From: an uncultured Candidatus Saccharibacteria bacterium
GTDB taxonomy: Bacteria; Patescibacteriota; Minisyncoccia; Phycocordibacterales; Zambryskibacteraceae
DNA: 64,000 bases
Direction of reading: 5' to 3'
NCBI GenBank assembly: GCA_964618905.1
Contig: CAZUDK010000001.1
Span: forward strand, 92,614-156,613
Shown: one piece after another, positions 13,356-39,526 of the stretch
Position numbering within the stretch: the first letter of the stretch is position 1
Layout: the number at the start of each line of letters is the position of its first letter
Made by a program: the position numbers and the translations under genes
Notes under the pieces: generated by a model
What the model was told of the DNA's origin: nothing
The model's database searches: none
The model's input: only the letters and a program-made list of their open reading frames with translations

Positions 13356-13441
13356 GGAGACGTGGCTGAGTGGTCGAAAGCGCCTCACTGCTAACGAGGT
13401 AGGGTGTAAAAGCTCTCCAGGGTTCGAATCCCTGCGTCTCC
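13356..13441 (+). tRNA. tRNA-Ser (anticodon GCU)
   Basis: Hand-folded cloverleaf: acceptor GGAGACG/CGTCTCC, anticodon loop CUGCUAA, long variable arm, T-loop GGTTCGAATCC, discriminator G; CCA not encoded. Confidence 0.8.
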
Positions 13442-13467
13442 GCAACGATTTGCAAGAAAGACCTAAA
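13426..13467 (+). repeat. 42-bp direct repeat, copy 1 (3' 16 nt of tRNA-Ser plus downstream terminator hairpin)
   Basis: GAATCCCTGCGTCTCCGCAACGATTTGCAAGAAAGACCTAAA is identical to 13604..13645. Confidence 0.85.
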
Positions 13468-13603
13468 CGGTCTTTTGAGCAAAGCGTAGTAGAAGAGTGT
13501 AGCTGGGATTCGAAAGGCGGAGCCAGAGCAATGCGAAGCATTGCAGATTGGCGAGCCCGGGCAGGGGCCACTTATGAGCGAAGCGAATTAGTGAGCTGAC
13601 GCC

Positions 13604-13645
13604 GAATCCCTGCGTCTCCGCAACGATTTGCAAGAAAGACCTAAA
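13604..13645 (+). repeat. 42-bp direct repeat, copy 2 (orphan tRNA-Ser 3' fragment plus terminator hairpin)
   Basis: Exact copy of 13426..13467; not preceded by a complete tRNA. Confidence 0.85.
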
Positions 13646-15952: not shown

Positions 15953-16026
15953 CCGCCCTTAGCTCAGTTGGTTAGAGCACAGAGCTTATATCTCTGCGGT
16001 CCTTGGTTCGAGTCCAAGAGGGCGGA
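15953..16026 (+). tRNA. tRNA-Ile with genomic anticodon UAU (reads AUA)
   Basis: 74-nt cloverleaf: acceptor CCGCCCT/AGGGCGG, D-arm GCTC-AGTTGGTTA-GAGC, anticodon stem CAGAG/CTCTG with loop CTTATAT (T at 34, A at 37), T-loop TTCGAGT. Confidence 0.7.
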
Positions 16027-16133
16027 CAAATTATCTGTGATGACAAGAATTGAATAAATGTGTATAACTTCCTACTTTAATACGGATGAGTTGGTAGAAT
16101 TATTTACAGTTAATTAATAGTTAATATTAGTTT

Positions 16134-16326: not shown

Positions 16327-16366
16327 TAAAAAGCCGGCGGATTCGATTGAATCCGCCGGCTTTTTG
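16327..16366. terminator. bidirectional intrinsic terminator
   Basis: Perfect 12-bp stem GCCGGCGGATTC/GAATCCGCCGGC flanked by an A-run and a T-run, between convergent genes. Confidence 0.8.
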
Positions 16367-20332: not shown

Positions 20333-20732
20333 GGGGATGCTCGGCCTAGACAAGAAGAGAAGGCAGGTTGATGCGCAAGAGAGCTCGGGTGACTCTTAAA
20401 TCCGCTCGAAATCTTAAATGCAAAATCAACTTTTGCTTCAGTTGTTTCTCCGTACTTTACGGCAAACGACTTCCAGTTCGCTTACGCTAGAGCTTAACGC
20501 TCGCTAGGCCTTCTGGCGCGGTTCCGCAAGATGCTTTGAGTAGCGGACTCCGTGTTATTACACAAAGCTCTGGATGCTAGTTCCTCACTAGTATCCGAAA
20601 CTTAGAGGATAGAGGCTTGAGGGCTTTCGTTTGCTTTATACCTCACACCTCGAACTTCAATGAAGCACACTACCTTGCGTAGACTTCATCCTGTCCCCTT
20701 CTTGCACGGCGGTTCGACTCCGCCCATCTCCA
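20333..20732 (+). ncRNA. ssrA: tmRNA (ssrA)
   Basis: 5' GGGGAUG pairs (one G-U) with 3' CAUCUCC-A; tRNA-like T-arm GGCGGTTCGACTCCGCC; internal reading frame GCA AAC GAC ... TAA (ANDFQFAYARA*) at 20462..20497; directly downstream of smpB. Confidence 0.75.
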
Positions 20733-20746
20733 CTAGCAAAAACATT

Positions 20747-23846: not shown

Positions 23847-24191
23847 ATGACAAGAGTAAAAAAGGGCGTTAATGCTCTAAAGACCAGAAGGAATATTCTC
23901 AAGCGTGTAAAAGGCTATAGGTATGGACGCGGCAGCAAAGAGAGGCAAGCTAATGAAGCCATAGTTCATGCAGGCACACATGCTTTTGCCCACAGAAGAG
24001 ACAAGAAAGGAGTATTCCGCAGACTATGGAATGTGCGAATGTCTTCACTACTTAAAGCAGAAGGCCTCTCCTACTCCAAGTTTATTTCTATGCTCAAGAA
24101 GAAAGACGTAGCTCTCGACAGGAAAATTCTAGCTGGCTTGGCTCAGAACAATCCGGAAACTTTCAAAAAAATCATAGAAGAGGTTAGATAA
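23847..24191 (+). CDS. rplT: 50S ribosomal protein L20
   Basis: MTRVKKGVNALKTRRNILKRVKGYRYGRG...SYSKFISMLKKKDVALDRKILA matches L20. Confidence 0.9.
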   Translation: MTRVKKGVNALKTRRNILKRVKGYRYGRGSKERQANEAIVHAGTHAFAHRRDKKGVFRRLWNVRMSSLLKAEGLSYSKFISMLKKKDVALDRKILAGLAQNNPETFKKIIEEVR

Positions 24192-24194
24192 ATC

Positions 24195-24286
24195 AAAAAA
24201 GCTTCTAAAAACCCTTGCGCAGCGCGTCGGCGCGAGCGGAGCGAATTTTCAGCAGAAAATTACGTGTGGTTTTTAGAAGCTTTTTT
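24195..24286 (+). repeat. structured 3'-UTR element A: extended-stem intrinsic terminator (19-bp perfect inverted arms) enclosing a conserved GC-rich core
   Basis: Arms AAAAAAGCTTCTAAAAACC / GGTTTTTAGAAGCTTTTTT. Core CCTTGCG...GAGCGGAGCG-AATTTTCAGCAGAAAATTAC, homologous to 38794..38911 (20-mer identical after reverse complement). Confidence 0.75.
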
Positions 24287-24295
24287 GCTTTTTAA

Positions 24296-25666
24296 TTACA
24301 AATCTAATTCGTATACTTTCCCCTTCTCAGGCACAACTGCTTCCACACCCAATTCATCGTGAAGCCGCTGAGAAAGAAACATGGCCGACTTTGGTTCACC
24401 CATAGCCACAAACACTTTCTCCAAACTCTCTTTAGTACTGGAGACAAAATCTACAAGCTGATCAGAATCAGCATGTGCCGAGAAGCCGCTTATGGTTTCT
24501 ATCTTGGCTCTAACCTTTACATGCCTGTCCTCTATCTGAACATTCTTCATGCCTTCTTGGATTTGGCGACCGAGCGTTCCTGGAGCTTGGTAGCCCACGA
24601 AAAGGAGTGTGGTGTCTGGGTCCGGCAAGAATTCTTCTTCGTGCGATATTATCCTGCCTGCAGTAGACATGCCGGAGCCGGCGAGAATTATCTTCGGACC
24701 AGAGACTTTTCTAATTTCCCTCGAATCGCGGACTTGGGAAGTTTCTTTCAATCGGGAAAAACTGAAGACATCATCACCTCCGTCTAGTTCCTGTTGTATA
24801 TGGCCATTTAAATTTTTGGTTAATTTACTGTATACATCTGTTATTTTTATAGCCAAAGGAGAATCTAAAAAGACTGGTATAGGTTCAATTTTTTCAGTTT
24901 CAAACAAATCATCCAGAAGATGCAGTATCTCCTGAGTTCTTTCAAGAGAAAAGGCTGGTATGAGTAGTGTTCCCTTTTTGGCTATAGTATCGAGTACCGC
25001 TTTCTTGAACTTCTCCTCTCTTTCATCCCTGTCTTCATGGATTCTGTCTCCATAAACACTCTCCATGACCATATACTGCAGACCGGAAACTTTTTCCACA
25101 TCCTTTAGAATAACTGATGGCGAGTTGCCAATGTCTCCGGTAAACATAATGGATCTAGAGCTGGCTTTAAAGGTAAACTTAACCATGCTCGAACCAAGCA
25201 CATGGCCAGAGTTGTAGAGCTCAACTGTAAAGCTGCCGAAATCTTTAGGTTGGTGATAACCAGTCGTATCCCACATAGATATACTCTTCTCTACATCACT
25301 GTAGGTATATATCGGCTCCTGTCCTTCATCTCTGGATTTTCTTTCATTTATTTTGGCTGAATCATCAAGCATCAGCTTGGCAATGCTCTTTGTCTCCGGC
25401 GTAGAGATAATCCGGCCATTGAAACCGTCTTTAACAAGTTTTGGTATCAGGCCAACATGATCTATATGAGCATGGGTAATAAACAAGAGATCAACAGAAC
25501 TTGGATCATATTTAAAATCGCTTCTATTGATCTCGTCTGCATCCCTAGACCCTTGAGTGAAACCGCAGTCTACAAGAACTCTCTTGTCTCCAGTATCGAG
25601 CAGAAAATTGGCTCCCGTGACCGTATCCACGCCGCCGTAAAACTCCAGTTTAACCATTATCTTCAA
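24296..25666 (-). CDS. MBL-fold metallo-hydrolase, beta-CASP RNA-processing family (RNase J-like)
   Basis: HAHIDHVG (HxHxDH) motif; beta-CASP-type C-terminal half; 456 aa. Confidence 0.7.
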   Translation of the reverse strand: MKIMVKLEFYGGVDTVTGANFLLDTGDKRVLVDCGFTQGSRDADEINRSDFKYDPSSVDLLFITHAHIDHVGLIPKLVKDGFNGRIISTPETKSIAKLMLDDSAKINERKSRDEGQEPIYTYSDVEKSISMWDTTGYHQPKDFGSFTVELYNSGHVLGSSMVKFTFKASSRSIMFTGDIGNSPSVILKDVEKVSGLQYMVMESVYGDRIHEDRDEREEKFKKAVLDTIAKKGTLLIPAFSLERTQEILHLLDDLFETEKIEPIPVFLDSPLAIKITDVYSKLTKNLNGHIQQELDGGDDVFSFSRLKETSQVRDSREIRKVSGPKIILAGSGMSTAGRIISHEEEFLPDPDTTLLFVGYQAPGTLGRQIQEGMKNVQIEDRHVKVRAKIETISGFSAHADSDQLVDFVSSTKESLEKVFVAMGEPKSAMFLSQRLHDELGVEAVVPEKGKVYELDL

Positions 25667-26105
25667 TTATCTCATAAAACTTAGGATACCTGCCTAAGAG
25701 CACGGCAAAAACAGCGCCAAAAGCATCGGCAATAAGATCAATGGAAGTATCAAGGACGTAATTCTGCTGCGCTGTAGAGATATTAAATACATATTCAAAT
25801 ATTTCCCAACCTATACCTATTAGCACTACGGAAACAAAGCTGGTCAGGAGAGCTTGGCGCAGACCGGGAAGCTTCTTGCTAAAGATTCCCGAGACATAGA
25901 ATATCCACATCAAGAAGAAGCCGATAGAGAGCCCGCCTAAGAAATGCATCAGTATATCAAACCACCACAAAGTCCAATATAAATACAAAAAAGTGGCTGA
26001 GAAATGAAGTCCTGCAAGGACCAGTACCAGAAAAAAGGTGGTAAATAAAAGTGAATAGTTCTTCACTTTCATATTGTAGCTTTTCAAAGCCTTAAAAGTA
26101 AACAA
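25650..26105 (-). CDS. hypothetical polytopic membrane protein
   Basis: Four or five TM helices; probable true start ATG at 26072 (MKVKNYS...). Confidence 0.45.
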   Translation of the reverse strand: MFTFKALKSYNMKVKNYSLLFTTFFLVLVLAGLHFSATFLYLYWTLWWFDILMHFLGGLSIGFFLMWIFYVSGIFSKKLPGLRQALLTSFVSVVLIGIGWEIFEYVFNISTAQQNYVLDTSIDLIADAFGAVFAVLLGRYPKFYEIIEDNG

Positions 26106-26133
26106 AAAGCCCGACTTTGGTCGGGCTTTTTGT
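26104..26133. terminator. bidirectional intrinsic terminator
   Basis: GCCCGAC-TTTG-GTCGGGC flanked by A5/T5 runs; about 195 nt after the ndk stop. Confidence 0.7.
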
Positions 26134-26329
26134 AAGGGTTATTTCGGTATACCCTAGTTTATGCAACTAGGTGGGTGCCCGCAGTATCCTTGCCAAGACA
26201 AGGTACGATTTAGGCTCCCTTTGAAAGTTTTAGCTAGATAATACCTTAAATAACCCTCTGAACATTATAACGTATGAGACAAAGTTTTATGTGTTGATAT
26301 CAGTATAGACTACTCATTAAAAGTGTCGT

Positions 26330-26848
26330 CTATTCGAGGATTCCATCCAAATTCACATCATAAAGTATCTCATCCTGAACAAGTCTGTAATCTATGATTT
26401 CCTTAGGATCGAACCAATGATTTATCTCAAAATCAGCTTCTTCTTCGTTGCCGGAAGCATGAATGAGATTCCTTACAGCCCTATCGTCGCCATCTGCTAA
26501 AGCATAAGAATCTAAAACATAATCCCCTCTTATTGTCCCTACATCAGAAGACAGAGGCTCTGTACTGCCTACAAGCTTTCTAACTAATTTAACTGCGCTA
26601 GCTCCTTCCCAAATCATAGCCACAACAGGCCCGCTGGTCATGTATTTAACCAGATGATCCTGTATTTTCTTATCTAGCTGGTTGTAGTGCTTTCTTACAT
26701 GATCTTCATCAACCGTAAGCATCTTCATACCGGCAAGCTTAAGCCCCACTCTTTCAAATCTGGAAATTATTTCTCCTATAAGACTTCTTTGCACGCAATC
26801 CGGCTTAAGAGCTACGAATGTTCTTTCTTTTTTCAAATGTTTTGTCAT
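26330..26848 (-). CDS. ndk: nucleoside diphosphate kinase
   Basis: ERTFVALKPDCVQRSLIGEIISRFE and NLIHASGN (active-site His) match NDK. Confidence 0.85.
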   Translation of the reverse strand: MTKHLKKERTFVALKPDCVQRSLIGEIISRFERVGLKLAGMKMLTVDEDHVRKHYNQLDKKIQDHLVKYMTSGPVVAMIWEGASAVKLVRKLVGSTEPLSSDVGTIRGDYVLDSYALADGDDRAVRNLIHASGNEEEADFEINHWFDPKEIIDYRLVQDEILYDVNLDGILE

Positions 26849-27615
26849 GAAGTTAGTATTATATTGCCTTTTTCAGTTATGGCAACAGTGTGTTCAAAAT
26901 GAGCGCTTCTTGAGCCATCCTTGGTGGATATAGTATATCCATCTTTGGAAAATTTAATACCAGGCTTGCCGACGTTCACCATGGGTTCTATAGCTATGAC
27001 CATTCCGGGCTCCAGAAGCACTCCTTCACCAGCCTTGCCAGTATTCGGCACAAAAGGTTCCTCATGAACCTCATATCCTACTCCATGACCAGCTAAATCT
27101 TCTGCAAGCGTAAAGCCATACTTCTTTACCACTGAAGAAATAGCTTCTCCTATATCTCCTATATGATTGCCTGGCTTTGCCGCAGAAATACCGGCTTCAA
27201 GAGCTTCTTTAGCAGACCTCAACAGCTGCACAGATTCATCATCTATAGCCCCAACTGGCACAGTAATAGCAGCGTCAGTAATAAGACCGTCGTGAACCAA
27301 TCCTAAGTCTAAAGAAACTATGTCGCCATCCCTTAAAATTCTCTCAACTTCATTAGGGATACCATGCACTATCTCATCATTTATGGAGACGCATAAAGCA
27401 GCTGGAAAAGGCCTGTAAGCGCCGGCAGGCGTATAACCCAAGAAAGCAGGTTCATCACCAACTTCGTTTATAAGTCTTTGTGACTCTTCTTCTAAGAAAA
27501 AGGTGCTCAGTCCGGGTCTGACCAAGCCATAAAGAGCTCTCAGAATCTCGGCATGCCTGGCTCCGCCAACTTTTAATGTTTCTATCTCTTCCTTTGTTTT
27601 AAGTCTTATGCTCAT
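26845..27615 (-). CDS. map: methionine aminopeptidase type I
   Basis: DIVSLDLGLVHDG, HGVGYEVHEEP and further metal-ligand motifs; conserved position after adk. Confidence 0.9.
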   Translation of the reverse strand: MSIRLKTKEEIETLKVGGARHAEILRALYGLVRPGLSTFFLEEESQRLINEVGDEPAFLGYTPAGAYRPFPAALCVSINDEIVHGIPNEVERILRDGDIVSLDLGLVHDGLITDAAITVPVGAIDDESVQLLRSAKEALEAGISAAKPGNHIGDIGEAISSVVKKYGFTLAEDLAGHGVGYEVHEEPFVPNTGKAGEGVLLEPGMVIAIEPMVNVGKPGIKFSKDGYTISTKDGSRSAHFEHTVAITEKGNIILTS

Positions 27616-28198
27616 ATGCTTCGATGATATCTTTGTGCACCTTATCTATATCTTGTTCTCCATTTATTTCTAAAAAGTTATAAAAGGGGTCAGCTTTAAA
27701 ATATTCAATGGCCGGCCACACATCCTGTTCAAACCAATTAAGACGCTTATTTATTTTAGATAGTGAACGATCATCTCTTCGTCCTCTGGCTAAAAGCCTC
27801 TCCTCCGCCCATTCTCTTCCGACATTAAGGTAAATTACACTTGGATTCTCTCTTTCATAAAACTTGAAAGCTGTCGAAAGTAGAACCGCTTCAGAGTGAG
27901 CCCTTGGAGCGCCATCGAACACCAGATGCATGTCCGGTTCAAGCTCATCAACCAACATACCAGCCCACATATAGCAGGCTAGAAAGTCCGGCTGGCGCGC
28001 ATCAGAATCATATACAGCCTTAGAGAGCTTTGATGAATAGCTTGAGCCTCTTATAAACTGTCTGAACCTATCTCCAGTTTCAATGTAAATAATCTGCTTA
28101 TTATCAAGGTCGCGATCCTTGATATATTTTTTAAAGAGCTCCGCTTGAGTTCCCTTGCCGCACCCTGAACGGCCTATGAATATGACTGTATGAAGCAT
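27599..28198 (-). CDS. adk: adenylate kinase-like P-loop NMP kinase
   Basis: Walker A GRSGCGKGTQ, TGDRFR, VFDGAPR and RGRRDD motifs; position after secY. Divergent, and lacks an obvious zinc LID. Confidence 0.7.
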   Translation of the reverse strand: MLHTVIFIGRSGCGKGTQAELFKKYIKDRDLDNKQIIYIETGDRFRQFIRGSSYSSKLSKAVYDSDARQPDFLACYMWAGMLVDELEPDMHLVFDGAPRAHSEAVLLSTAFKFYERENPSVIYLNVGREWAEERLLARGRRDDRSLSKINKRLNWFEQDVWPAIEYFKADPFYNFLEINGEQDIDKVHKDIIEAYEHKT

Positions 28199-28262
28199 AT
28201 TAGAATAAGGAATTACAAATTAAGAATAACATAATTCCCTACTCTTGCTCTGCCTCTATATC

Positions 28263-29534
28263 TTAGTACTCTCTTACGCTGGCTTGAGCGTCGATTCTTT
28301 TGACAATGTCTATAACGACAGATACGACAATCAACAGAGCTGTACCTCCTATAGCTAGGGATTGAATGCCGGTTATAGACCTCAGCAAGAGAGGCAGTAC
28401 TGCAATAAAACCGAGGAACAGAGCACCAAAGAAAGTCAGACGGGTAACAATCTTTGATATGTACTCCATAGTAGATTGTCCGGGACGAACTCCGGGTATG
28501 AAAGCTCCGCTCTTTTGGAGATTGGATGACACGGATTCAGGATCAAAAGTAACTGCCGTATAGAAATATGTAAATAGGAAAACAAAGAAGAAATAGAGCA
28601 AAGCATATACCCATTGGTTAGCAAGAACAGCTAAGATACTGCTTGAGATGCTTGCCACTGAAGTTAGTGATGATTTGGCCAAGAACTCCAAGATCATCTG
28701 AGGAAACAGCAAGATAGAAAGAGCAAAGATGATCGGAATAACGCCGGCCTGATTAACTTTGATAGGCAGATAAGTCTGAAGACCGCCATAAGATCTTCCT
28801 CCTCTAACCTGTTTTGCATAAGTGATTGGCACCGGCCTTTCGGCTTCATTAATAACCACCACTCCATAAGTTACAAGAAGAGCTGCTACGAAGGCTGCTG
28901 CATAAACCGGCACGAGCTGAGGTTGGAAAGTGAAAACAAGCTGTGAAATAGAGGTAGGCAAAGCAGAGATTATGCCGGCGAAAATTATCAAAGATACACC
29001 ATTACCTACGCCGAATTCGGAAATCAGCTCTCCGACCCACATCAGCAATATTGAGCCGGCTACAATAACCAAGACATCTATGGCCATATCACTAAGAGAC
29101 ATTGGAGGAAGGACGTTTTGTCCTTGCAGGAGTACTATAAAGGCATATCCCTGAATAACAGCTAAAGGCACTGTCAGAAGTCTTGAATACTGGGCAAAAG
29201 TACGCCTACCAGCATCTCCTTCCTCCTGATATAAAGCTTTGAGCTTAGGAGACATGATGGTCAGAAGTTGCATCACAATAGAGGCCGTTATATAAGGGCC
29301 TACTCCAAGCATGACTATAGAAAGATTAGACAGTCCGCCACCGGAGAAAATATTAAGAAGAGAGAGGAACTGGCTGCCAGAGAAAAGGCTCTGAAGTCTT
29401 AAAGTGTCTATGCCTGGTACAGGAATAGCGGCAAGCACCCTTGTTATTACAAGGAGTCCAAGAGTTATAAGAATGCGATTGCGCAGTGCGGTATCGCTGA
29501 ATATAAGACGCAGCCTTTGGATAAAATTACTCAT
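28263..29534 (-). CDS. secY: preprotein translocase subunit SecY
   Basis: 423 aa with 10 TM segments and conserved SecY N-terminal and plug regions. Confidence 0.95.
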   Translation of the reverse strand: MSNFIQRLRLIFSDTALRNRILITLGLLVITRVLAAIPVPGIDTLRLQSLFSGSQFLSLLNIFSGGGLSNLSIVMLGVGPYITASIVMQLLTIMSPKLKALYQEEGDAGRRTFAQYSRLLTVPLAVIQGYAFIVLLQGQNVLPPMSLSDMAIDVLVIVAGSILLMWVGELISEFGVGNGVSLIIFAGIISALPTSISQLVFTFQPQLVPVYAAAFVAALLVTYGVVVINEAERPVPITYAKQVRGGRSYGGLQTYLPIKVNQAGVIPIIFALSILLFPQMILEFLAKSSLTSVASISSSILAVLANQWVYALLYFFFVFLFTYFYTAVTFDPESVSSNLQKSGAFIPGVRPGQSTMEYISKIVTRLTFFGALFLGFIAVLPLLLRSITGIQSLAIGGTALLIVVSVVIDIVKRIDAQASVREY

Positions 29535-29814
29535 CTGACTCTTTGGAGCCTCTATTAGCTTTCTTATCTGCTAAATGCTTTTTAAGCGCAGCTCCTGAAA
29601 GCTTTGTGCGCCTTGATTTAAGAGAGTTGATTCCCCTACCTCGAAGCTTAGGCACTTTCTTGATGAGGTCTCGAAGCTCAGGTCGTTTTTTGCGTCCAGC
29701 TCTGGCGTTCTGACCTTTGGTTCCTCGGCCAGCAGTTTTGCCTCGCTTTCCCCCTCGTCCTACTTGCCTGGACTTGGTTCTTGATGTATTCGGTTTGAGA
29801 GTATGGAATTGCAT
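29527..29814 (-). CDS. rplO: 50S ribosomal protein L15 (short form, 95 aa)
   Basis: N-terminal 60 aa match L15 (HTLKP..RVGRGG..GKTAGRGTKGQNARAG); the C-terminal globular half is absent and secY starts 8 nt inside the ORF end. Confidence 0.75.
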   Translation of the reverse strand: MQFHTLKPNTSRTKSRQVGRGGKRGKTAGRGTKGQNARAGRKKRPELRDLIKKVPKLRGRGINSLKSRRTKLSGAALKKHLADKKANRGSKESDE

Positions 29815-29838
29815 GTTATTTATAATGAAATTGTCTGA

Positions 29839-30423
29839 TTATTTCTCTTTTATTTCAAGACCATCAAGCTTTTTAAGTGCCTTTATAGCGGCATAAGCGT
29901 TATTGACGCTGTTCTTACTCCTGGATAAAAGCTTTGCTCCTACTCCATGCATGCCAGCGAGTTCAAGCACTACTCTGACAGAGCTTCCGGCTAAAATACC
30001 CTTGCCTTTAGCAGGCATGATCTTAACATCCGAAGAAGCAAACTTGGCTTCCACCTCATGAGGAATAGACATGTCTTTGGTCAGATTGACACTTATCATG
30101 TTTTTCTTGGCATCTCTGAAAGCCTTGTCTATTGCAAGCGGAGTATCCGAAGCTTTACCTTGACCGACACCAACCTTACCCTTCCTGTTACCAGCAACTA
30201 CCGCAACAGAGAAGCTGAATCGCCTTCCTCCTGCCACCACTCTGGTAACTCTGCGAAGGCTAATGATCTTTTGATCGAACTCAGGCTTAACACGCGTATC
30301 CCTTGAAGATCTTCTTCTATTCCTTGGTCCTCGAGATGAAGCAAAAGGCTTATTAGCCGTAGCTGTAGTCTCTGCCGACTTCTCATTTCCGTTTATTTTT
30401 TCTGCTGTTTTTGCTTCTTCCAT
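29839..30423 (-). CDS. rpsE: 30S ribosomal protein S5
   Basis: RVTRVVAGGRRFSFSVAVVAGNRKGKVGVGQGKA matches the S5 core; Lys/Arg-rich N-terminal extension. Confidence 0.9.
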   Translation of the reverse strand: MEEAKTAEKINGNEKSAETTATANKPFASSRGPRNRRRSSRDTRVKPEFDQKIISLRRVTRVVAGGRRFSFSVAVVAGNRKGKVGVGQGKASDTPLAIDKAFRDAKKNMISVNLTKDMSIPHEVEAKFASSDVKIMPAKGKGILAGSSVRVVLELAGMHGVGAKLLSRSKNSVNNAYAAIKALKKLDGLEIKEK

Positions 30424-30431
30424 AACTTATA

Positions 30432-30755
30432 TTAAAACTTTAATCCAGCCTCCCTGGCACTATCAGCCAGAGCTTTGACCCTACCTGTATAAACATAACC
30501 ACCTCTGTCGAACACTGCTTTGTCTATTTTCTTGGCAAGGGCAGCTTTTGCAAGACTCTCTCCAAGCTTCTTTGGATCCTTATCTTTAGCAGATGCAATA
30601 GTTGTTCCGGTATTGTCATCTATAAGCTGAGCGAACATACCTTTGTTCGACTTGAAAACAGACAATCTAGGCACATCATGAGTACCAGATATTTTAGCGC
30701 GTATTTTAGCGCGTCTTCTGTCTCTCTTTATACTTTTGTTATTAGCAGTATTCAT
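30432..30755 (-). CDS. rplR: 50S ribosomal protein L18
   Basis: Sequence and position between L6 and S5. Confidence 0.85.
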
Positions 30756-30762
30756 ATTTCAC

Positions 30763-31314
30763 TTATATTGATTTCTTACCCTGCTTGCGCCTTATTATTT
30801 CATCATCATAGCGGATACCTTTGCCTTTGTAAGGTTCCGGCTTTTTCATGGACCTGACTTTTGCAGCAAAGCTGCCTACACCCTCCTTGTTTATACCAGA
30901 AACAGTTATTACGTTTTTCTCTGCTTTGACACTGAGACCCTCAGGAATTTTAACTATGACCGGATGAGAGAAGCCAAGCGACATCACCAACTCTTCTCCA
31001 TTTCCTGAAGAAGCAGGCTTAACTTCTGACTTAAAACCAATTCCTTCAACAATAAGCTTTTTCTCAAAAGGCTTGTTGACGCCGGCAATCATATTGGAAA
31101 TATGGGATGCGAATGTTCCCCACAAAGCTCTCGCTTCAATACTGTCTTTCTTAGGATGAACAGTAACATCTCTATCCTCTATCTTTACTTCTACCAGAGG
31201 ATGAAGCTTTCTTGTGATCTCTCCCTCAGGACCTTTGATGGATACGGAACCGTCCGAGACTTTTATCTCGGTCTTCTCCGGAAGAGTCATAATTTGTTTT
31301 CCTATTCTTGACAT
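30763..31314 (-). CDS. rplF: 50S ribosomal protein L6
   Basis: MSRIGKQIMTLPE... two-domain L6. Confidence 0.9.
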   Translation of the reverse strand: MSRIGKQIMTLPEKTEIKVSDGSVSIKGPEGEITRKLHPLVEVKIEDRDVTVHPKKDSIEARALWGTFASHISNMIAGVNKPFEKKLIVEGIGFKSEVKPASSGNGEELVMSLGFSHPVIVKIPEGLSVKAEKNVITVSGINKEGVGSFAAKVRSMKKPEPYKGKGIRYDDEIIRRKQGKKSI

Positions 31315-31344
31315 GAAAGTTTTTAAATCTGAAGACTGGAATAT

Positions 31345-31743
31345 TTACCAAATAGATAAGAGAGCTTCGCCTCCGACTCCAGCTTTCTTTGCATCCTTGC
31401 CGGACATAACACCCTTAGGGGTGGTCATAACAATTGTGCCGTAACCACCTTTTATCTGTCTGATCTCTCCAGCTTTTTTGTATACCCTCTTGGATAGCTT
31501 TGATATTCTCTTGGCTTCGCGGATCTTAGGTTTGTGATTATTTATGATTACTCCAATTACAAGCGTCTTCTTGCCCTTTAGAGTCTTAACTTCAACCTCT
31601 CCTATGAATCCCTCAGCTTTTAGAACTTTAGCAATATCTTCCTTTATCTTTGAATAAGGAATAGAAACGCTCGAAAGTCCGGCGTTGCCGGCATTTTTCA
31701 AAGCTGTCAGCATGTCTGCGATAGGATCCATAATTCTTACCAA
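31345..31743 (-). CDS. rpsH: 30S ribosomal protein S8
   Basis: [14 protein letters not shown]...[25 protein letters not shown]. Confidence 0.9.
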
Positions 31744-31922
31744 GAAGATTTCTTAACACCTGGAATCTTGCCCTCATTAGCAAGTTCTCGGAAACAAATA
31801 CGGCAAAGATCGAAATCTCTCATATATCCGCGCTTGCGTCCGCATTTGAAGCATCGGTTAACAGCCCTTGTAGGAAACTTGGGCTTCTTCTTCGAACGTG
31901 CTATTACAGATATTTTTGCCAT
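31737..31922 (-). CDS. rpsN: 30S ribosomal protein S14 type Z (zinc-binding)
   Basis: 61 aa, CFKCGR...CRIC Cys4 motif. Confidence 0.9.
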
Positions 31923-32110
31923 AAACCCTAATAAATTTTCTTTTAGTTAATCTAACTTGTACTTACTCTCGTATACCCTCCTTACTATAAATCCGCTTAG
32001 ATTTAAGGCGAGGAAAAAATTTACGAGGGTAAATTAAATAAGAGGCCTTTAAAGCCGTGCGGACAGCTTAACATAAGGGTTTTCCATATTCAAGAGCTAT
32101 ACTACTAGCC

Positions 32111-32317
32111 TTAATCAGTGAGATTCTCTTCGAGCCTCCTTACCCTTTCCTCGAGGGTATGAAGCTTGTCGTCGTCCTCCTTATGATGGCGAAACCACCT
32201 CTTAAGCTGGGGCCAGATGAGTGCTCCGACAAGGATGTCGAAGATAAGGATGATGAATAGCTCGAATTGCCAATGAGCCAGGTCAGTGACAAGAGTCCAA
32301 AAGGTCTCGTGCTCCAT
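32111..32317 (-). CDS. small single-TM protein inserted between rplE and rpsN (possibly PspB-like coiled-coil tail)
   Basis: 68 aa; N-terminal TM helix then EERVRRLEENL; gene GC clearly above the neighbouring r-protein genes; preceded by a 190-bp non-coding gap. Confidence 0.4.
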   Translation of the reverse strand: MEHETFWTLVTDLAHWQFELFIILIFDILVGALIWPQLKRWFRHHKEDDDKLHTLEERVRRLEENLTD

Positions 32318-32331
32318 TGTGCTATTTTACC

Positions 32332-32865
32332 CTATTTCTTGAACGGGAAACCGAGGTGGTTTAGGAGAGCAAGCAGTTCTTTCTTGGTCTTGGCGGTCGT
32401 TACAATTGTTATTGCCATTCCGAAGACATCCTTGAGCTCCTCGTCTGAAGTTTCAGGAAAGATAGTGTGCTCTTTGATGCCTAGAGTATAATTTCCCATT
32501 TCATCCGCAGCATCAGGAGAAATACCTCTGAAGTCCTTAGTTCTAGGAAGTGCGATGTTTATGAGTCTGTCCAGAAAATCATACATTCTCTTCCCTCTCA
32601 AAGTAACTTGGTAACCGACAATATCTCCCTGGCGGGTTTTAAAGTTGGCTACAGACTTCTTAGCTGGTCGGCCGGAAGGTTTTTGACCCGTAATCTTAGA
32701 CATGCGGTCTTCTACGATGCTGAGCTTATTCTTATCCTTGAAAGAACCTGTACCAGAAGAAACTACAACCTTCAATATCTTCGGAGCTTGCATCCTGTTC
32801 TTGTATCCTTGCTCTTCCTTCAAAGCATCGAATGACTTGTTTGATTTTTCTTTTAAAGTTTCCAT
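32332..32865 (-). CDS. rplE: 50S ribosomal protein L5
   Basis: Sequence and position. Confidence 0.9.
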   Translation of the reverse strand: METLKEKSNKSFDALKEEQGYKNRMQAPKILKVVVSSGTGSFKDKNKLSIVEDRMSKITGQKPSGRPAKKSVANFKTRQGDIVGYQVTLRGKRMYDFLDRLINIALPRTKDFRGISPDAADEMGNYTLGIKEHTIFPETSDEELKDVFGMAITIVTTAKTKKELLALLNHLGFPFKK

Positions 32866-32884
32866 AACATTTTCAACTTAGAAT

Positions 32885-33163
32885 CTATGACTTACTACCA
32901 GCAACTTTCTTTGAATTTTTCTTTTTGTCTGTTGTCGGTTGCTTGCTGTCGGCTAATTTAACGTTTGATACGTGAATTGGGAAGAATTTCTCCACCACCT
33001 GTCCTTGCCCTTCGCTTCTTGTAGCTTTCTGGTGAACCTTCTTGGCATTTACACCTTCCACAAGGACTTTATCCATGCGCGGAAAAGCCTTCAGAATCTT
33101 TCCTTTCTTGCCTTTGTCTTTGCCTGCAAGCACTATTACGTTGTCTCCTTTCTTTACATGCAT
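32885..33163 (-). CDS. rplX: 50S ribosomal protein L24
   Basis: MHVKKGDNVIVLAGKDKGKKGKI KOW motif. Confidence 0.9.
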   Translation of the reverse strand: MHVKKGDNVIVLAGKDKGKKGKILKAFPRMDKVLVEGVNAKKVHQKATRSEGQGQVVEKFFPIHVSNVKLADSKQPTTDKKKNSKKVAGSKS

Positions 33164-33177
33164 AAATATAAATTTAC

Positions 33178-33549
33178 TTATACCACCTCAGGGGCTAGAG
33201 AAATTATCTTCTGAAAACCCTTTTCGCCTATTTCGCGAGGTATAGGGCCGAAAACTCTACCAGCTATAGGCTCCTTCTTGGCATTGTCCAAAATTACCAC
33301 CGCATTCTGGTCAAACCTGACATAAGAACCATCCTTTCTGCGGAATGGAGCGCGCTGGCGAACTATCACACCGAAGAGGACATCCTTTTTCTTGACGCTT
33401 TTTCTTGGTTCCGCTTTTTGAACAGAGAGTACTACGAGGTCCCCTATCCTTGCATAGCGCTTCTTAGAGCTTCCAAGTACTTTGAAAACCCTACCCAGCT
33501 TTGCTCCGGAATTGTCTGCGATATCTACGATGGTTTGTGGCTGAATCAT
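33178..33549 (-). CDS. rplN: 50S ribosomal protein L14
   Basis: MIQPQTIVDIADNSGAK...ISLAPEVV. Confidence 0.95.
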   Translation of the reverse strand: MIQPQTIVDIADNSGAKLGRVFKVLGSSKKRYARIGDLVVLSVQKAEPRKSVKKKDVLFGVIVRQRAPFRRKDGSYVRFDQNAVVILDNAKKEPIAGRVFGPIPREIGEKGFQKIISLAPEVV

Positions 33550-33559
33550 ACTAAGATGC

Positions 33560-33817
33560 TTAAACTACCATAAAATGCTTATCTTTTGAAATAGGCTTGG
33601 TTTCAGTGATCGTTACCTTGTCTCCAATTTTCTTGGTATTACCTGCATCATGCGCCTTAAATTTCTTTTGGATGCGAATATATTTCTTGTATTTCGGATG
33701 CTTTTCGTAGCGCTCAACAAGAACAACCACAGTATCCTTCATCTTGTCGGACACTACAGTACCGGACAAAGTTTTGCCCGCTGATCGCTCTTTAGTTGTT
33801 TTATTTTCCTTTTCCAT
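33560..33817 (-). CDS. rpsQ: 30S ribosomal protein S17
   Basis: KTLSGTVVSDKMKDTVVVLVERYEKHPKYKKY. Confidence 0.9.
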   Translation of the reverse strand: MEKENKTTKERSAGKTLSGTVVSDKMKDTVVVLVERYEKHPKYKKYIRIQKKFKAHDAGNTKKIGDKVTITETKPISKDKHFMVV

Positions 33818-34026
33818 TATTTTTCAGTTAAATTTTCTTTCTTTTGCATAGATACCAGTTCGGTCATAATGCGGGCAACATCTTTCTTAAGATTGTGGCC
33901 ATGCTTTGTGTTGGTAGTCTTAGAGCCGGTTATGCCAAAGCGAAATTTTCTAAGATCCTCTCGCTTTTCCAAGAGAGTCTTGATCAATTCATCCTTATTC
34001 TTATCTTTATAATTTGTCTTTTTCAT
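33817..34026 (-). CDS. rpmC: 50S ribosomal protein L29
   Basis: Size, position and the DVARIMT motif. Confidence 0.8.
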   Translation of the reverse strand: MKKTNYKDKNKDELIKTLLEKREDLRKFRFGITGSKTTNTKHGHNLKKDVARIMTELVSMQKKENLTEK

Positions 34027-34049
34027 GATTCTGCTTAGTGTCTGCTCTT

Positions 34050-34466
34050 TTATCTTGCAACCACCTTGGTCTTAACCGGCAATTTAGTGCCCGCCTTGCG
34101 CAAAGCCTCCTTGGCTACAGCTTCACTGACACCATCGACCTCGAAGAGGATCCTGCCGGCTCTTACAGGAGCCACATAACCTTCAAGATCTCCCTTACCC
34201 TTTCCAAGCTTAACTTCGGCAGGCTTCTTGGTATAAGGCATGTCAGGGAAAATACGTATCCAATATCTGCCGGTCTTGCCTACAGCGCGAGTCAGAGCTT
34301 TTCTTGCAGCTTCTATCTGATTAGATCTAATTCTGGCAGCTTCCATAGACTTAAGTCCATAAGAACCAAAAGCCACAGTAACCCCTCTGGTAGCAGGACC
34401 TACTTTGGAAGGATTCTTCCTCATTGTCTGCCACTTGCGATGTTTTACTTTCTTTGGAAACAGCAT
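34050..34466 (-). CDS. rplP: 50S ribosomal protein L16
   Basis: [13 protein letters not shown]... match to L16. Confidence 0.95.
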
Positions 34467-34491
34467 TTTATTAAAAGTTATTTAGATTTGT

Positions 34492-35166: not shown

Positions 35167-35171
35167 AATGA

Positions 35172-35585: not shown

Positions 35586-35607
35586 GTTACTTGATTTCTA
35601 TACCAGA

Positions 35608-38749: not shown

Positions 38750-38793
38750 GGGCGTATTCTATCTGGACAGGAGAGAAGTTACAACCCAGCTTT

Positions 38794-38911
38794 AAAACAA
38801 AGAAAAAACAACAATTTCCTGTGCATGCAGTAATTTTCTGCTGAAAATTCTGCTCTGCTCACCACGCCGGGCTCCGCAAGGCACCATAAATTGTTGTTTT
38901 TTCTTTGTTTT
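38794..38911 (-). repeat. structured 3'-UTR element B: 23-bp perfect inverted arms enclosing a conserved GC-rich core (homolog of 24195..24286)
   Basis: Arms AAAACAAAGAAAAAACAACAATT / AATTGTTGTTTTTTCTTTGTTTT. The core on the minus strand reads CCTTGCG...GAGCAGAGCAG-AATTTTCAGCAGAAAATTAC; it lies in the 3' UTR of rplJ-rplL. Confidence 0.75.
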
Positions 38912-39046
38912 ACTTGAAGGTAACTTTGTCACAGATAATTTCCTCGCCGTAGCTCGGAAATTTCCGCGACTCCGCCTCGCGCCCGACTACTGCTGTAGTC
39001 GGACTGAGTGCGCTCCGGCCGTAAGACCTACCTAAATAAGCTCCGC

Positions 39047-39526
39047 TTATTTAAAGGTGGCCTTACCTCCTGCTTCCTCAATCTTAGCCTTGAGTTCTTC
39101 AGCTTCTTCTTTCTTCACATCAGACTTAAGCATAGATGGAGCAGCATCAACCATATCCTTTGCCTCCTTCAATCCAAGTCCGAGAGCTTCCTTGACCACC
39201 TTGATAACGGCAATCTTGTTAGCACCTGCGTCAGAAAGCTCTATATTTACCGTAGAACCTCCTTCTTCAGCTTCACCGCCGGCAGCAGGACCTGCAACCG
39301 CTACAGCTGTAGCTGAAACGCCGAATTTGTTTTCGAAGACCTTAACTAGCTCGTTGAGATCAAGCACTGACATGTTCTCGATTTCTTCAACAATCTTCTT
39401 GAACTTCTCAGGGACTTCTACTTCTTTAGTCTCTTCTTTAACTTCTTCGCTAGCAGGCGCAGCCTGAGTTTCTTCTTTCACTTCCTCTGCCGGAGCCTGT
39501 GCTTCTGTATTTGTTTCTTCTGCCAT
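39047..39526 (-). CDS. rplL: 50S ribosomal protein L7/L12 with ~40-aa acidic N-terminal extension
   Basis: Dimerisation domain [30 protein letters not shown], Ala/Gly hinge, C-terminal domain [24 protein letters not shown]. Confidence 0.9.

What the first reader, a model, noticed from the sequence alone, without database searches (positions are those of the whole stretch)
24195..24286. Conserved structured 3'-UTR element shared by two ribosomal-protein operons (copy A, after rpmI-rplT)
Copy A (24195..24286) and copy B (38794..38911) have the same architecture in transcript orientation: an A-rich arm, a GC-rich core beginning CCTTGCG, GAGC(G/A)GAGC..G, then the identical 20-mer AATTTTCAGCAGAAAATTAC, a small 7-bp-stem hairpin, and a U-rich arm. 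Within each copy the arms are perfectly complementary, 19 bp here and 23 bp in copy B. The arm sequences differ between copies. Structure is therefore preserved by compensatory change while the apical core is conserved. Both copies sit directly after the last gene of an r-protein operon, where an intrinsic terminator is expected. This looks like an uncharacterised terminator-embedded RNA motif, or a structured miniature element targeting operon ends.
Basis: seen in the sequence. Interest (0 to 1): 0.65.

Follow-up and report, generated by a model that had tools for sequence, protein, structure and literature searches.

The report
Patescibacterial hairpin element with three-way junction
The two look-alike sequences after the ribosomal-protein genes are real copies of a widespread, apparently uncatalogued family of folded hairpin elements in ultra-small (Patescibacteria/CPR) bacteria; they are not tied to ribosomal operons, and their function is still unknown.

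Summary
Copies A and B share an exact 20-mer (2 hits; 0.01 expected). Their outer arms are perfectly paired (20 and 25 bp) and unrelated in sequence.

A scan of 185,579 species genomes with the 20-mer gave 95 loci. In 92 of them, all patescibacterial-type MAG contigs, the architecture recurs. A locus-specific outer stem (P1) is capped by a conserved three-way junction. One arm is P2, a G-N-A/G-A loop and the P3 hairpin. The other is P4 (AAUUUUC-AGCA-GAAAAUU with a bulged A). All helices covary. Nothing matches in Rfam 15, and the papers searched describe nothing like it.

Copies lie next to gene 3' ends in either orientation, beside unrelated genes. They are gained and lost between related genomes. 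Yet G·U outnumbers A·C 68:10 on the core-sense strand, even where both neighbours are antisense.

A second subtype sits just after tRNA genes. Its arms are an inverted plus a direct copy of the tRNA 3' end.

My best reading is a duplicating, mobile-like structured element that acts as single-stranded RNA and is probably a protein-binding platform. It is not an r-protein-specific 3'-UTR or terminator motif. Function and mobility mechanism remain inferred.

The parts
24194..24213 (+). Copy A, P1 5' arm (CAAAAAAGCTTCTAAAAACC). Its sequence is specific to this locus.
   Evidence: Pairs perfectly over 20 bp with 24268-24287. It begins 3 nt after the rplT stop codon.
24214..24240 (+). Copy A, P2 / internal loop / P3 arm. 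P2 is UUGC (24215-18) paired with GCGG (24236-39). The loop is 5'-GCA (24219-21) opposite 3'-GA (24234-35). P3 is GCGC-GUCG-GCGC (24222-33).
   Evidence: Aligned to model R1 at 73.6 bits, E 4e-18. P3 and the top of P2 covary across 60 copies.
24241..24265 (+). Copy A, P4 hairpin: a 3-bp lower stem, the 7-bp stem AAUUUUC/GAAAAUU, the loop AGCA and the bulged A at 24262. It contains the shared 20-mer at 24244-24263.
   Evidence: In copies without the exact 20-mer the P4 upper stem changes by compensatory pairs, while the loop AGCA and the bulged A are mostly kept.
24268..24287 (+). Copy A, P1 3' arm (GGTTTTTAGAAGCTTTTTTG). It is T-rich and lies 8 nt before the stop codon of the convergent MBL/beta-CASP gene.
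38793..38912 (-). Copy B, the whole element. It has 25-bp perfect P1 arms (38888-38912 is the 5' arm and 38793-38817 the 3' arm on the - strand). The 20-mer is at 38830-38849.
   Evidence: R1 gives 59.6 bits, E 3e-14.
38926..39024 (-). Third family member, a divergent 'type 2' form between the rplL stop codon and copy B. P3 is extended into CCGACUAC-AGCA-GUAGUCGG. P4 is GGAAAUUUCC-GAGCUACGGCGA-GGAAAUU with the bulged A.
   Evidence: R2 gives 38.3 bits, E 9e-9. Fold z = -5.5 for the whole 135-nt rplL-to-copy-B spacer and -4.5 for the element. It aligns to type-2 copies.
13505..13622 (+). Fourth member, a tRNA-linked type 2 form. P1 is GGGAUUCG (13505-12) paired with CGAAUCCC (13603-10), followed by AAA, then GGC-GGA-P3-GA-GCC, then a variant P4. 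It ends with a copy of the tRNA-Ser 3' part.
   Evidence: R2 gives 16.4 bits, E 0.018. It is the ortholog of the canonical type-2 element in L012.
13356..13444 (+). tRNA-Ser(gct). Its 3' part (13425-13444), its trailer and its terminator hairpin are repeated at 13603 onward. The repeat has 43 nt identical, and about 51 nt with 2 mismatches.
23847..24191 (+). rplT (L20), the last gene of infC-rpmI-rplT, upstream of copy A.
   Evidence: Pfam Ribosomal_L20, E 9e-30.
24296..25666 (-). MBL/beta-CASP (RNase J/CPSF-like) gene, convergent on copy A.
   Evidence: Pfam domains listed with the homolog search and with the orthologous gene in L096.
39047..39526 (-). rplL (L7/L12), the last gene of rplJ-rplL, upstream of the third member and of copy B.
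   Evidence: Pfam Ribosomal_L12, E 2e-24.

Best explanation
Copy A is one member of a family of interspersed, non-coding hairpin elements of Patescibacteria. I found the family neither in Rfam 15 nor in the papers searched. The core is about 75 nt, and the whole element is 90-190 nt with its outer stem.

**Shown**
- One strand of each element folds into a long outer stem P1 whose sequence is locus-specific. P1 is capped by a conserved three-way junction.
- One arm of the junction is P2 (about 6 bp), an internal loop 5'-G-N-A / 3'-G-A, and the P3 hairpin.
- The other arm is P4: a short lower stem, a bulged A, the 7-bp stem AAUUUUC/GAAAAUU and the loop AGCA.
- The elements exist in several copies per genome and lie beside gene 3' ends in either orientation.
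- They are present or absent at orthologous sites in related genomes.
- Orthologous cores are more conserved than the flanking coding DNA.
- One subtype is tied to tRNA genes.

**Inferred**
- The functional form is the sense-strand RNA.
- The invariant junction and P4 loop are the docking site of a conserved trans-acting factor, probably a protein. That factor gives the element its function, its spread, or both.
- The outer stem only has to pair, so it drifts by compensatory change or palindrome self-correction.
- At the two sites in this window the T-rich 3' arms let the hairpins also serve as the 3'-end or terminator hairpins of the rplT and rplL transcripts.
- New copies arise as whole hairpins, by duplication or transposition through an unknown mechanism.
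For: **The family is real**
- The 20-mer has 95 genome loci against about 1 expected by chance (my estimate from the 596 billion bases of the collection). In 92 of them, all patescibacterial-type MAG contigs, the architecture is shared.
- The covariance model found 112 full-length copies, about 20 of them without the exact 20-mer.

**The structure is supported by covariation**
- On a MAFFT alignment not fitted to the structure, 84% of cells pair against 69% in shuffles. There are 284 double-change cells against 113. Partners slid by 1-3 columns give 36-50% paired.
- Type 2 copies give 91% against 82%, with an invariant G·U pair in P4.
- The P4 upper stem covaries: AUUUUUC/GAAAAAU, AAAUUUC/GAAAUUU, AAUUUCU/AGAAAUU, CUGCGCG/CGCGCAG.

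**A single-stranded, strand-specific form is under selection**
- In P1 stems G·U outnumbers A·C 68 to 10. The ratio is 15 to 1 in copies antisense to both neighbours.
- The tandem-GA base motif GCGAG...CGAGC occurs in 13 of 107 copies on the sense strand and in none on the antisense strand.
- There is no link to replication direction. GC skew is uniform across the window while the four copies lie + + - -.

**The core is constrained**
- Orthologous cores are 85-99% identical where flanks are 73-84% identical.
- The L010/L069 orthologs differ by three changes in each arm, all compensated.

**Copies are gained and lost**
- The rplT-MBL spacer is about 40 nt and empty in L097.
- The second L026 copy is absent from L042 and L006.
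- One site is filled in L084 and L095 but empty in L024.

**Context**
- 80 of 85 copies abut a gene 3' end and only 5 sit in divergent spacers.
- Neighbouring genes are functionally unrelated.
Against: - No transcript data exist, so RNA is inferred only from strand asymmetry and RNA-type motifs. A strand-specific single-stranded DNA intermediate would leave a similar G·T over A·C signature.
- No partner protein was identified. No transposase, integrase or reverse transcriptase lies near any of the 117 loci, apart from an unrelated IS200-like gene at the orthologous site in L096.
- No target-site duplication or conserved termini could be defined for type 1 copies.
- No promoter signal appears upstream. 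Copy A has no room for its own promoter.
- Sense transcription of copies that lie antisense to both neighbours is therefore unexplained.
- The exact 20-mer occurs in only about 80 species genomes, so the family may be patchier than 'phylum-wide'.
Confidence: 0.5

Rival explanations
1. A family of independent, trans-acting small RNA genes. It would be a multi-copy housekeeping or regulatory RNA of Patescibacteria whose conserved three-way junction is the functional part and whose outer stem is a processing or stability stem. Copy turnover would reflect ordinary gene duplication and loss, not mobility.
For: - Sense-strand selection holds whatever the neighbours' orientation.
- The core is more conserved than coding flanks.
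- Distinct paralogues, with P4 AAUUUUC versus AAUUUCU, are kept side by side in L011 and L027, and similar adjacent pairs occur in the related L083 and L080.
- RNA-type motifs are present: tandem G·A pairs and an invariant G·U.
- Type 2 copies sit behind tRNA genes, which have strong promoters.
Against: - No promoter signal at a fixed distance.
- Many copies abut a stop codon.
- Presence or absence differs at the same site between close relatives, and one site carries different arms in opposite orientations.
- Copy number varies widely between genomes.
- tRNA-linked copies follow the tRNA's own terminator.
Confidence: 0.2
2. A DNA-level element. The hairpin would form in single-stranded DNA and be the substrate of an HUH (Y1, IS200/RAYT-like) transposase or of a recombinase that acts on folded hairpins. 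That would make it a REP/REPIN- or attC-like selfish or domesticated repeat, with RNA irrelevant.
For: - G·T is also tolerated in DNA hairpins, so the strand asymmetry fits a 'top-strand' substrate.
- Copies are gained, lost and found in both orientations.
- A Y1_Tnp (PF01797) gene flanked by hairpins occupies the orthologous rplT-MBL spacer in the closest relative, L096.
- tRNA-linked copies are bracketed by a direct repeat of the tRNA 3' part, as at tRNA integration sites.
- Arms stay perfectly paired, as expected from palindrome self-correction.
Against: - Orientation is not tied to replication direction: + + - - in a window of uniform GC skew, and + - - - within 3.3 kb in L080.
- The L096 transposase's own end hairpins (GCATAGGCC...) are unrelated to the core. 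No homolog of that protein is in any other locus or in the window.
- No integrase is near any copy.
- Tandem G·A motifs and an invariant G·U are typical RNA features.
- The core sequence is conserved across many patescibacterial lineages, unlike REPs.
Confidence: 0.17
3. One reading: a cis-acting, terminator-embedded or 3'-UTR regulatory RNA serving ribosomal-protein operons.
For: - Copy A directly follows rplT. The third member and copy B follow rplL.
- Both A and B have A-rich 5' and T-rich 3' arms.
- No plain terminator-like site was called after either gene.
Against: - Neighbour genes are unrelated across the family.
- 24 of 51 copies in co-directional spacers are antisense to the genes.
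- Only 8 of 112 copies have a T-run after the stem.
- Pairing is selected on the core-sense strand even in antisense contexts.
- In L053 the infC-rpmI-rplT operon has no element directly after it.
Confidence: 0.08

Closest known systems
REP / BIME elements and REPIN-RAYT systems (proteobacterial repetitive extragenic palindromes; compared from memory)
   Same: Both are multi-copy, non-coding, hairpin-forming intergenic repeats. Both sit beside gene 3' ends in both orientations, often as adjacent inverted pairs. Both can act as mRNA 3' stabilisers or terminators. Pairing is kept by compensatory change.
   Different: REPs are 20-40 nt with a conserved GTAG foot and are species-specific. In a REPIN the conserved REP units form the stem and the sequence between them varies. 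Here the apical three-way junction is conserved across many patescibacterial lineages and the stem is what varies. No RAYT was found associated. Copy number is low, from a few to perhaps tens per genome.
ERIC / IRU elements of Enterobacteria (compared from memory)
   Same: Both are long imperfect palindromes conserved in sequence across genera. Both sit at different intergenic sites in different species, have no known transposase, and are transcribed into hairpins that affect mRNA fate.
   Different: ERIC is about 127 bp, conserved along its whole length, and known only from Enterobacteria and Vibrio. It has no three-way junction with covarying helices and no link to tRNA genes.
Elements that integrate into tRNA genes at the T-loop (integrase-borne islands and prophages)
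   Same: Type 2 copies are bounded by a direct repeat running from T-loop C56 to the tRNA 3' end plus 1-6 trailer nt. That is exactly the kind of att repeat left by T-loop integration.
   Different: The 'insert' is only 120-170 nt and carries no integrase. At least 12 different tRNA species are involved. The repeat is preceded by its own reverse complement (up to 19 nt) with the conserved core in between. Normal att sites do not show this.
Integron attC sites
   Same: Both are hairpins recognised by structure rather than sequence. Both are placed at the 3' ends of genes, are strand-specific, and may have branched apical parts.
   Different: In attC the conserved boxes (RYYYAAC/GTTRRRY) are at the stem base and the apex is variable, which is the reverse of this family. 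No integrase or cassette array is seen here, and the neighbours are housekeeping genes.
Intrinsic (Rho-independent) terminators
   Same: Copies A and B have an A-tract, a stem and a T-rich 3' arm at the ends of convergent or terminal genes.
   Different: The 'loop' is a 54-70 nt conserved three-way junction. Most family members lack a T-run, and half of those in co-directional spacers are antisense to the flanking genes.

Membership tests
Any Rfam 15 RNA family | Score at or above the family's gathering threshold, or at least a specific sub-threshold match. | tested here: not met
   The gathering scan of the window found only tmRNA and 2 tRNAs. E-value scans of copy A and of a type-2 locus gave only generic long-hairpin (miRNA-precursor) matches far below threshold.
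Intrinsic terminator | A stem followed directly by a U-tract. | tested here: not met
   Only 8 of 112 copies have at least 4 T in the 6 nt after P1. Copies A and B have T-rich 3' arms inside the stem.
Intrinsic terminator | A fixed sense orientation behind the gene it terminates. | tested here: not met
   In co-directional spacers 27 copies are sense and 24 antisense. Pairing is selected on the core-sense strand in antisense contexts.
REP/REPIN-RAYT | A short imperfect palindrome with a conserved GTAG-type foot. The stem is conserved and the loop is variable. | tested here: not met
   The stem varies between copies and the apex is conserved. No common foot exists. GCGAG...CGAGC is present in only 13 of 107 copies.
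REP/REPIN-RAYT | A cognate Y1 (RAYT) gene flanked by the repeats in the same genome. | not testable with these tools
   Only 64 kb of this genome and 8-kb loci are held. tblastn with the L096 Y1_Tnp protein found no homolog in the window or in any other locus.
MITE | Terminal inverted repeats conserved between copies. | tested here: not met
   The arms of A and B and of most copies are unrelated.
MITE | A short target-site duplication. | tested here: inconclusive
   No direct repeats beyond chance flank type 1 copies. The filled/empty pairs are too diverged to fix the boundaries.
IS200/IS605-type single-strand elements (PATE) | Orientation tied to the lagging-strand template. | tested here: not met
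   GC skew is uniformly negative across the window, yet the copies lie + + - -. L080 has + - - - within 3.3 kb. The sample is small.
tRNA-site integrative element | A direct repeat of the tRNA 3' part bounding the insert. | tested here: met
   13 of 58 tRNAs in the loci have such a repeat 121-167 nt downstream. More cases appear in metagenome loci. This applies to type 2 copies only.
tRNA-site integrative element | An integrase or recombinase gene carried by the insert. | tested here: not met
   The insert is 120-170 nt. The downstream genes are unrelated housekeeping or accessory genes.
Integron attC | R''/R' core sites at the stem base, with arrays next to an integrase. | tested here: not met
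   The stem bases are variable. The neighbours are RNase H, ComEC, SOD, KsgA, UvrD and similar genes.

The most novel reading that the evidence does not exclude
The element is a new kind of self-propagating hairpin that builds its own outer stem from the target. In tRNA-linked copies the 3' arm is a direct copy of the adjacent tRNA's 3' end and the 5' arm is its reverse complement, up to 19 nt perfect. This holds behind at least 12 different tRNA species with no recombinase nearby. That would point to an undescribed insertion mechanism, for example hairpin- or snap-back-templated synthesis or folded-hairpin recombination. It would be driven by a Patescibacteria-specific ribonucleoprotein that recognises the conserved three-way junction.
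Probability: 0.2. Interest if true: 0.85.

Novelty: new variant of a known kind. Interest (0 to 1): 0.62.

Why it matters
- **A new structured nucleic-acid family.** Patescibacteria/CPR make up a large share of bacterial diversity, have tiny genomes and few recognised non-coding RNAs or repeats. This family has more than 100 members here, covariation in every helix, and no Rfam counterpart. It is conserved more strongly than neighbouring protein genes, which implies a conserved partner that has not been identified.
- **Effects on annotation.** The elements create spurious ORFs across the core.
- **Interpretation of operon ends.** Some apparent terminators in these genomes may be these elements or relics of them. 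In L024 a plain terminator-like hairpin shares its stem with the outer stem of the L084 element at the same site.
- **The tRNA-linked subtype.** It offers a concrete, testable handle on how small hairpin repeats arise and move. That question is still open for ERIC-type elements.

Tried and rejected
1. **Known RNA families.** Rfam gathering and E-value scans gave nothing specific.
2. **Literature.** Six searches, including the literal 18-mer and 14-mer, found no description. The paper on tRNA group I introns in Patescibacteria concerns position 35/36 of the anticodon loop and is unrelated.
3. **Phage origin.** There are no exact 20-mer hits in IMG/VR.
4. **Link to the IS200-like Y1_Tnp gene in L096.** Its end hairpins differ from the core and it has no homologs in other loci. 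The nearby CAGGCCGACGGGCCGA is just a GC-rich hairpin.
5. **Retro-origin of the tRNA-derived arm from mature tRNA.** CCA follows the copy in only 3 lineages (p about 0.04). The copies include 1-6 trailer nt, and 31 nt in the window, so they derive from DNA or a precursor. Rejected.
6. **5'-UTR riboswitch-like role.** Genes whose 5' ends abut copies fall into 86 families among 64 proteins.
7. **Own sigma-70 promoter.** There is no positional enrichment of TATAAT-like hexamers against the antisense control.
8. **Core inserted into the loop of pre-existing terminators.** This fits one filled/empty pair, L084 against L024. In three other pairs the whole hairpin is the indel, and that stem sequence recurs at other loci, so loss of the core is equally likely.
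9. **Direct repeats flanking type 1 copies.** None beyond chance.
10. **A recurrent neighbouring protein family as partner.** The largest cluster spans 8 of 117 loci and is release factor. All top clusters are housekeeping.
11. **Other long inverted repeats in the window** (5704-5801, 15122-15221, 48563-48667). They are unrelated to the family.
Full report
**1. Observation**

- The 20-mer AATTTTCAGCAGAAAATTAC occurs exactly twice in the window, once on each strand. Even with 3 mismatches allowed there is no other hit, and shuffles give 0.01 expected.
- The outer arms pair perfectly over 20 bp in copy A (24194-24213 with 24268-24287) and over 25 bp in copy B (38793-38817 with 38888-38912). The two arm sequences are unrelated.
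- Both copies fold much better than shuffles, z = -5.1 and -6.7.
- Pfam confirms the gene calls: infC-rpmI-rplT upstream of A and rplJ-rplL upstream of B.
- Copy A starts 3 nt after the rplT stop. Copy B starts 135 nt after the rplL stop.

**2. The two copies belong to a large family**

- An exact-match scan of one genome per species (185,579 species, 596 billion bases) with the 20-mer returned 95 loci. I estimate about 1 hit by chance.
- 92 of them are patescibacterial-type MAG contigs. The record labels include Parcubacteria/Paceibacterota, Adler-, Kaiser-, Nomura-, Taylor- and Collierbacteria, Minisyncoccia, and many MAGs labelled 'Saccharibacteria'. All 92 share the same flanking architecture.
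- The other three are bare 20-mers with no core: a Jejudonia and a Paenibacillus genome, and a MAG labelled Caldisericales.
- Several assemblies hold 2-5 loci.
- A covariance model (R1) built from 60 copies found 112 full-length copies in the 96 sources. About 20 of these lack the exact 20-mer. They often lie as adjacent pairs, and L080 has four within 3.3 kb.

**3. Structure**

The consensus is a three-way junction on top of a long stem.

- **P1** is the outer stem. Its extension beyond the 9 bp held in the model ranges from 0 to 24 bp. Its sequence is specific to each locus.
- **P2** is about 6 bp.
- **The internal loop** is 5'-G-N-A opposite 3'-G-A.
- **P3** is a 4-bp hairpin with loop GAC(U)G.
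- **P4** has a 3-bp lower stem, a bulged A, the 7-bp stem AAUUUUC/GAAAAUU and the loop AGCA.
- **The last junction strand** is two nucleotides, usually GA.

The covariation evidence comes from a MAFFT alignment that was not fitted to the structure:

| Measure | Observed | Control |
|---|---|---|
| Cells forming a standard pair | 84% | 69% in column shuffles (0 of 500 shuffles reach the observed value) |
| Cells changed on both sides | 284 | 113 in shuffles |
| Cells paired with partners slid 1-3 columns | – | 36-50% |

- P3 pairs in 98% of cells and uses up to four pair types per position.
- In copies found without the 20-mer, the P4 upper stem also changes by compensatory pairs: AUUUUUC/GAAAAAU, AAAUUUC/GAAAUUU, AAUUUCU/AGAAAUU and even CUGCGCG/CGCGCAG. 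The loop AGCA and the bulged A are mostly kept.

A second subtype, which I call type 2, has the same parts with a different junction. It has three A's after P1, a 3-bp P2, and an 8-bp lower P4 that contains an invariant G·U. It covaries equally well (91% paired against 82% in shuffles).

**4. Not a catalogued family**

- Rfam 15 at gathering thresholds finds only the tmRNA and two tRNAs in the window.
- Permissive scans of copy A and of a type-2 locus give only generic long-hairpin matches.
- Six full-text searches, including the literal sequence, found no description.
- The 20-mer is absent from IMG/VR viral contigs.

**5. Inventory of the window: four members**

| Member | Coordinates | Evidence |
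|---|---|---|
| Type 2 copy after tRNA-Ser(gct) | 13505-13622 (+) | R2 16.4 bits, E 0.018. Supported mainly by orthology with the canonical L012 element and by the tRNA-repeat architecture |
| Copy A | 24194-24287 (+) | R1 73.6 bits |
| Divergent type 2 copy right after rplL | 38926-39024 (-) | R2 38.3 bits, E 9e-9 |
| Copy B | 38793-38912 (-) | R1 59.6 bits |

So rplL is followed by two family members in tandem.

**6. Context**

For copies with both neighbours called:

| Spacer type | Copies |
|---|---|
| Convergent | 29 |
| Co-directional, element sense to the genes | 27 |
| Co-directional, element antisense to the genes | 24 |
| Divergent | 5 |

- The elements therefore sit next to gene 3' ends and avoid divergent promoter regions. 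They show no orientation preference.
- Genes whose 3' ends abut copies fall into 137 Pfam families among 112 proteins, with at most 3 per family.
- Genes whose 5' ends abut copies fall into 86 families among 64 proteins.
- No protein family recurs in more than 8 of 117 loci, and the top clusters are all housekeeping: release factor, EF-G, S2, CCA-adding enzyme.
- Only 8 of 112 copies have a T-run after P1.
- The link to ribosomal operons is therefore incidental, and the family is not a terminator class.
- Copies A and B do have T-rich 3' arms, and no plain terminator was called after rplT or rplL. A local terminator role remains plausible.

**7. Which strand, and DNA or RNA?**

- In the P1 stems G·U pairs outnumber A·C mismatches 68 to 10. 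A G·U pair on one strand reads as an A·C mismatch on the other.
- In the 24 copies that are antisense to both neighbours the ratio is still 15 to 1 on the core-sense strand.
- The tandem-GA motif GCGAG...CGAGC at the stem base occurs in 13 of 107 copies on the sense strand and in none on the antisense strand.
- One strand, defined by the core and not by the neighbouring genes, is therefore the one that must fold. This excludes a double-stranded site or cruciform, and it excludes a role solely inside neighbouring mRNAs.
- GC skew is negative across the whole window while the four members lie + + - -. The folding strand is therefore not tied to the lagging-strand template, as it is for IS200/IS605-type elements.
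- Together with the sheared-GA motifs and the invariant G·U, RNA is the simpler reading. It remains an inference.

**8. Turnover and constraint**

The elements come and go between related genomes.

- The rplT-MBL spacer that holds copy A is about 40 nt and empty in L097 (64% identity in the MBL protein). In L096 (74%) it holds an unrelated IS200-like Y1_Tnp gene with its own end hairpins.
- L026 has a second copy that is absent from L042 and L006.
- One site is empty in L024 but filled in L084 and L095. The two filled copies have different arms and opposite orientations.
- At another site L024 has a plain 14-bp terminator-like hairpin. Its stem matches the middle of P1 of the L084 element there. 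This means either insertion into a terminator loop or loss of the core.

The core is nevertheless constrained.

- Orthologous cores are 85-99% identical where the mostly coding flanks are 73-84% identical.
- The orthologous arms in L010 and L069 differ by three changes in each arm, and every one is compensated.

**9. The tRNA-linked subtype**

- Type 2 copies lie 45-170 nt downstream of a tRNA gene, on the same strand and behind the tRNA's own terminator hairpin.
- They end with a direct copy of that tRNA's 3' part. The copy runs from T-loop C56 to the discriminator plus 1-6 trailer nt. In the window it extends through the trailer and terminator, with 43 nt identical.
- Their 5' arm is the reverse complement of that copy, up to 19 nt perfect in L101.
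- 13 of the 58 tRNAs in the genome loci show this. More cases appear among the 20 metagenome loci.
- At least 12 tRNA species are involved, and no integrase is nearby.
- Orthologs such as L019/L033, and copies such as L106 and L117, show the copy decaying away from the tRNA sequence while P1 stays paired. Identity to the tRNA is therefore historical, or kept by local gene conversion. It is not functionally required.
- I cannot decide between three origins: (a) integrase-type recombination of a miniature element, (b) gene conversion plus palindrome self-correction, and (c) a mechanism that copies the target into both arms.
- A cDNA origin from mature tRNA is unlikely, because trailer nucleotides are included and CCA is not enriched convincingly.

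**10. Mechanism and rivals**

- **Best-supported reading (0.5).** A duplicating, mobile-like, non-coding element whose sense-strand RNA folds into a hairpin capped by a three-way junction. The invariant junction and P4 loop serve as a docking site for an unidentified conserved factor. P1 drifts under a pairing-only constraint. Some copies, including A and B, double as 3'-end hairpins.
- **Rival: independent trans-acting small RNA genes (0.2).**
- **Rival: a single-stranded-DNA substrate of an HUH enzyme or recombinase (0.17).**

Shown: the family, its structure, strand specificity, context, turnover and the tRNA linkage. Inferred: transcription, the partner, the function and the way it spreads.

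**11. Comparison with known elements**

- It behaves like REP/BIME, ERIC and Correia-type repeats: intergenic hairpins at gene ends, in both orientations, with turnover.
- It fails their defining features. It has no conserved stem or foot, no terminal inverted repeats, no detectable target duplication and no associated transposase.
- It inverts the attC pattern: here the apex is conserved and the base varies.
- The type 2 repeats look like tRNA att sites but carry no integrase.
- I therefore file it as a new variant of the interspersed palindromic-element kind. A real chance (about 0.2) remains that the tRNA-derived arms reveal a new insertion mechanism.

**12. Limits**

- Gene calls in the loci are my own longest-ORF heuristic.
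- The family sample was seeded by an exact 20-mer, so P4 conservation is overstated in the seed alignments.
- Many loci are phylogenetically related, so the counts are not independent events.
- No expression data were available.

Noticed in passing
L096:5362-6170 (orthologous to window 24192-24295): In the closest relative, the rplT-MBL spacer holds a 213-aa Y1_Tnp (PF01797, IS200/RAYT-like) gene. Nearly identical hairpins (GCATAGGCCCGGCCTATGC) bracket it on both sides. This is a different mobile element at the same convergent spacer.
   Followed up: partly
window 15953-16027 (+): ARAGORN calls a tRNA-Ile with anticodon UAU. Bacteria usually read AUA with a lysidine-modified CAU tRNA. This may reflect loss of TilS in this lineage.
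   Followed up: no
window 20333-20735 (+): A tmRNA with an unusually long predicted tag peptide, AKSTFASVVSPYFTANDFQFAYARA (25 residues).
   Followed up: no
window 36000-43500 (-): rplJ-rplL, a 106-aa cysteine-rich ORF (40191-40511, no Pfam hit), a 185-aa ORF with no Pfam hit and an MscS-like gene sit just downstream of the S10-L3-L4-L23-L2 genes, where the rest of the S10-type ribosomal cluster would normally follow. A further run of short minus-strand ORFs downstream (about 26300-35950) was not identified.
   Followed up: no
window 48540-48700: A 17-bp perfect inverted repeat (CTCTTTTGCCGATACTC / GAGTATCGGCAAAAGAG) encloses 71 nt. The sequence TGTATAAAAAAT is repeated just upstream of the left arm and inside the enclosed region. 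It is unrelated to the family by both models and is unexplained.
   Followed up: partly
L015:6565-6880: Further family variants in tandem behind tRNA-Glu. In these P4 is replaced by AAUUCGUUUUC-GACG-GGAAACGAAUU and P3 by a longer hairpin. A 24-nt direct repeat links the two units. The family is broader than models R1 and R2 capture.
   Followed up: partly
L084:7297-7371 (-) versus L095:483-557 (+): The same orthologous spacer carries an element in opposite orientations and with different arms in two relatives about 82% identical. This means either independent insertions or inversion of the core between its inverted arms.
   Followed up: partly
L033, L049 and many loci from TPA_asm MAG sets: MAGs labelled 'uncultured Pseudomonadales' or 'Candidatus Saccharibacteria' carry complete elements. 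L033 carries the same tRNA-Leu(taa) - element - tRNA-Arg(tct) arrangement as a MAG labelled Collierbacteria (L019). The taxon labels of these records look unreliable.
   Followed up: no
L055:2093-2980 and five similar ORFs: Long spurious ORFs that overlap the elements (the L055 ORF covers the copy at 2092-2166) cluster together as a 'protein family' in 6 loci. Automatic annotation may be calling false genes over these elements.
   Followed up: no
window 37075-37119: A 22-bp near-perfect palindrome with a 1-nt loop (AGGATAAAGGGCCCAGCAGCTA / TAACTGCTGGGCCCTTTATCCT) lies between convergent genes. Plain perfect palindromes of 14-22 bp with 1-4 nt loops look like this genome's usual bidirectional terminators (also 16328-16365 and 26102-26133).
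   Followed up: no
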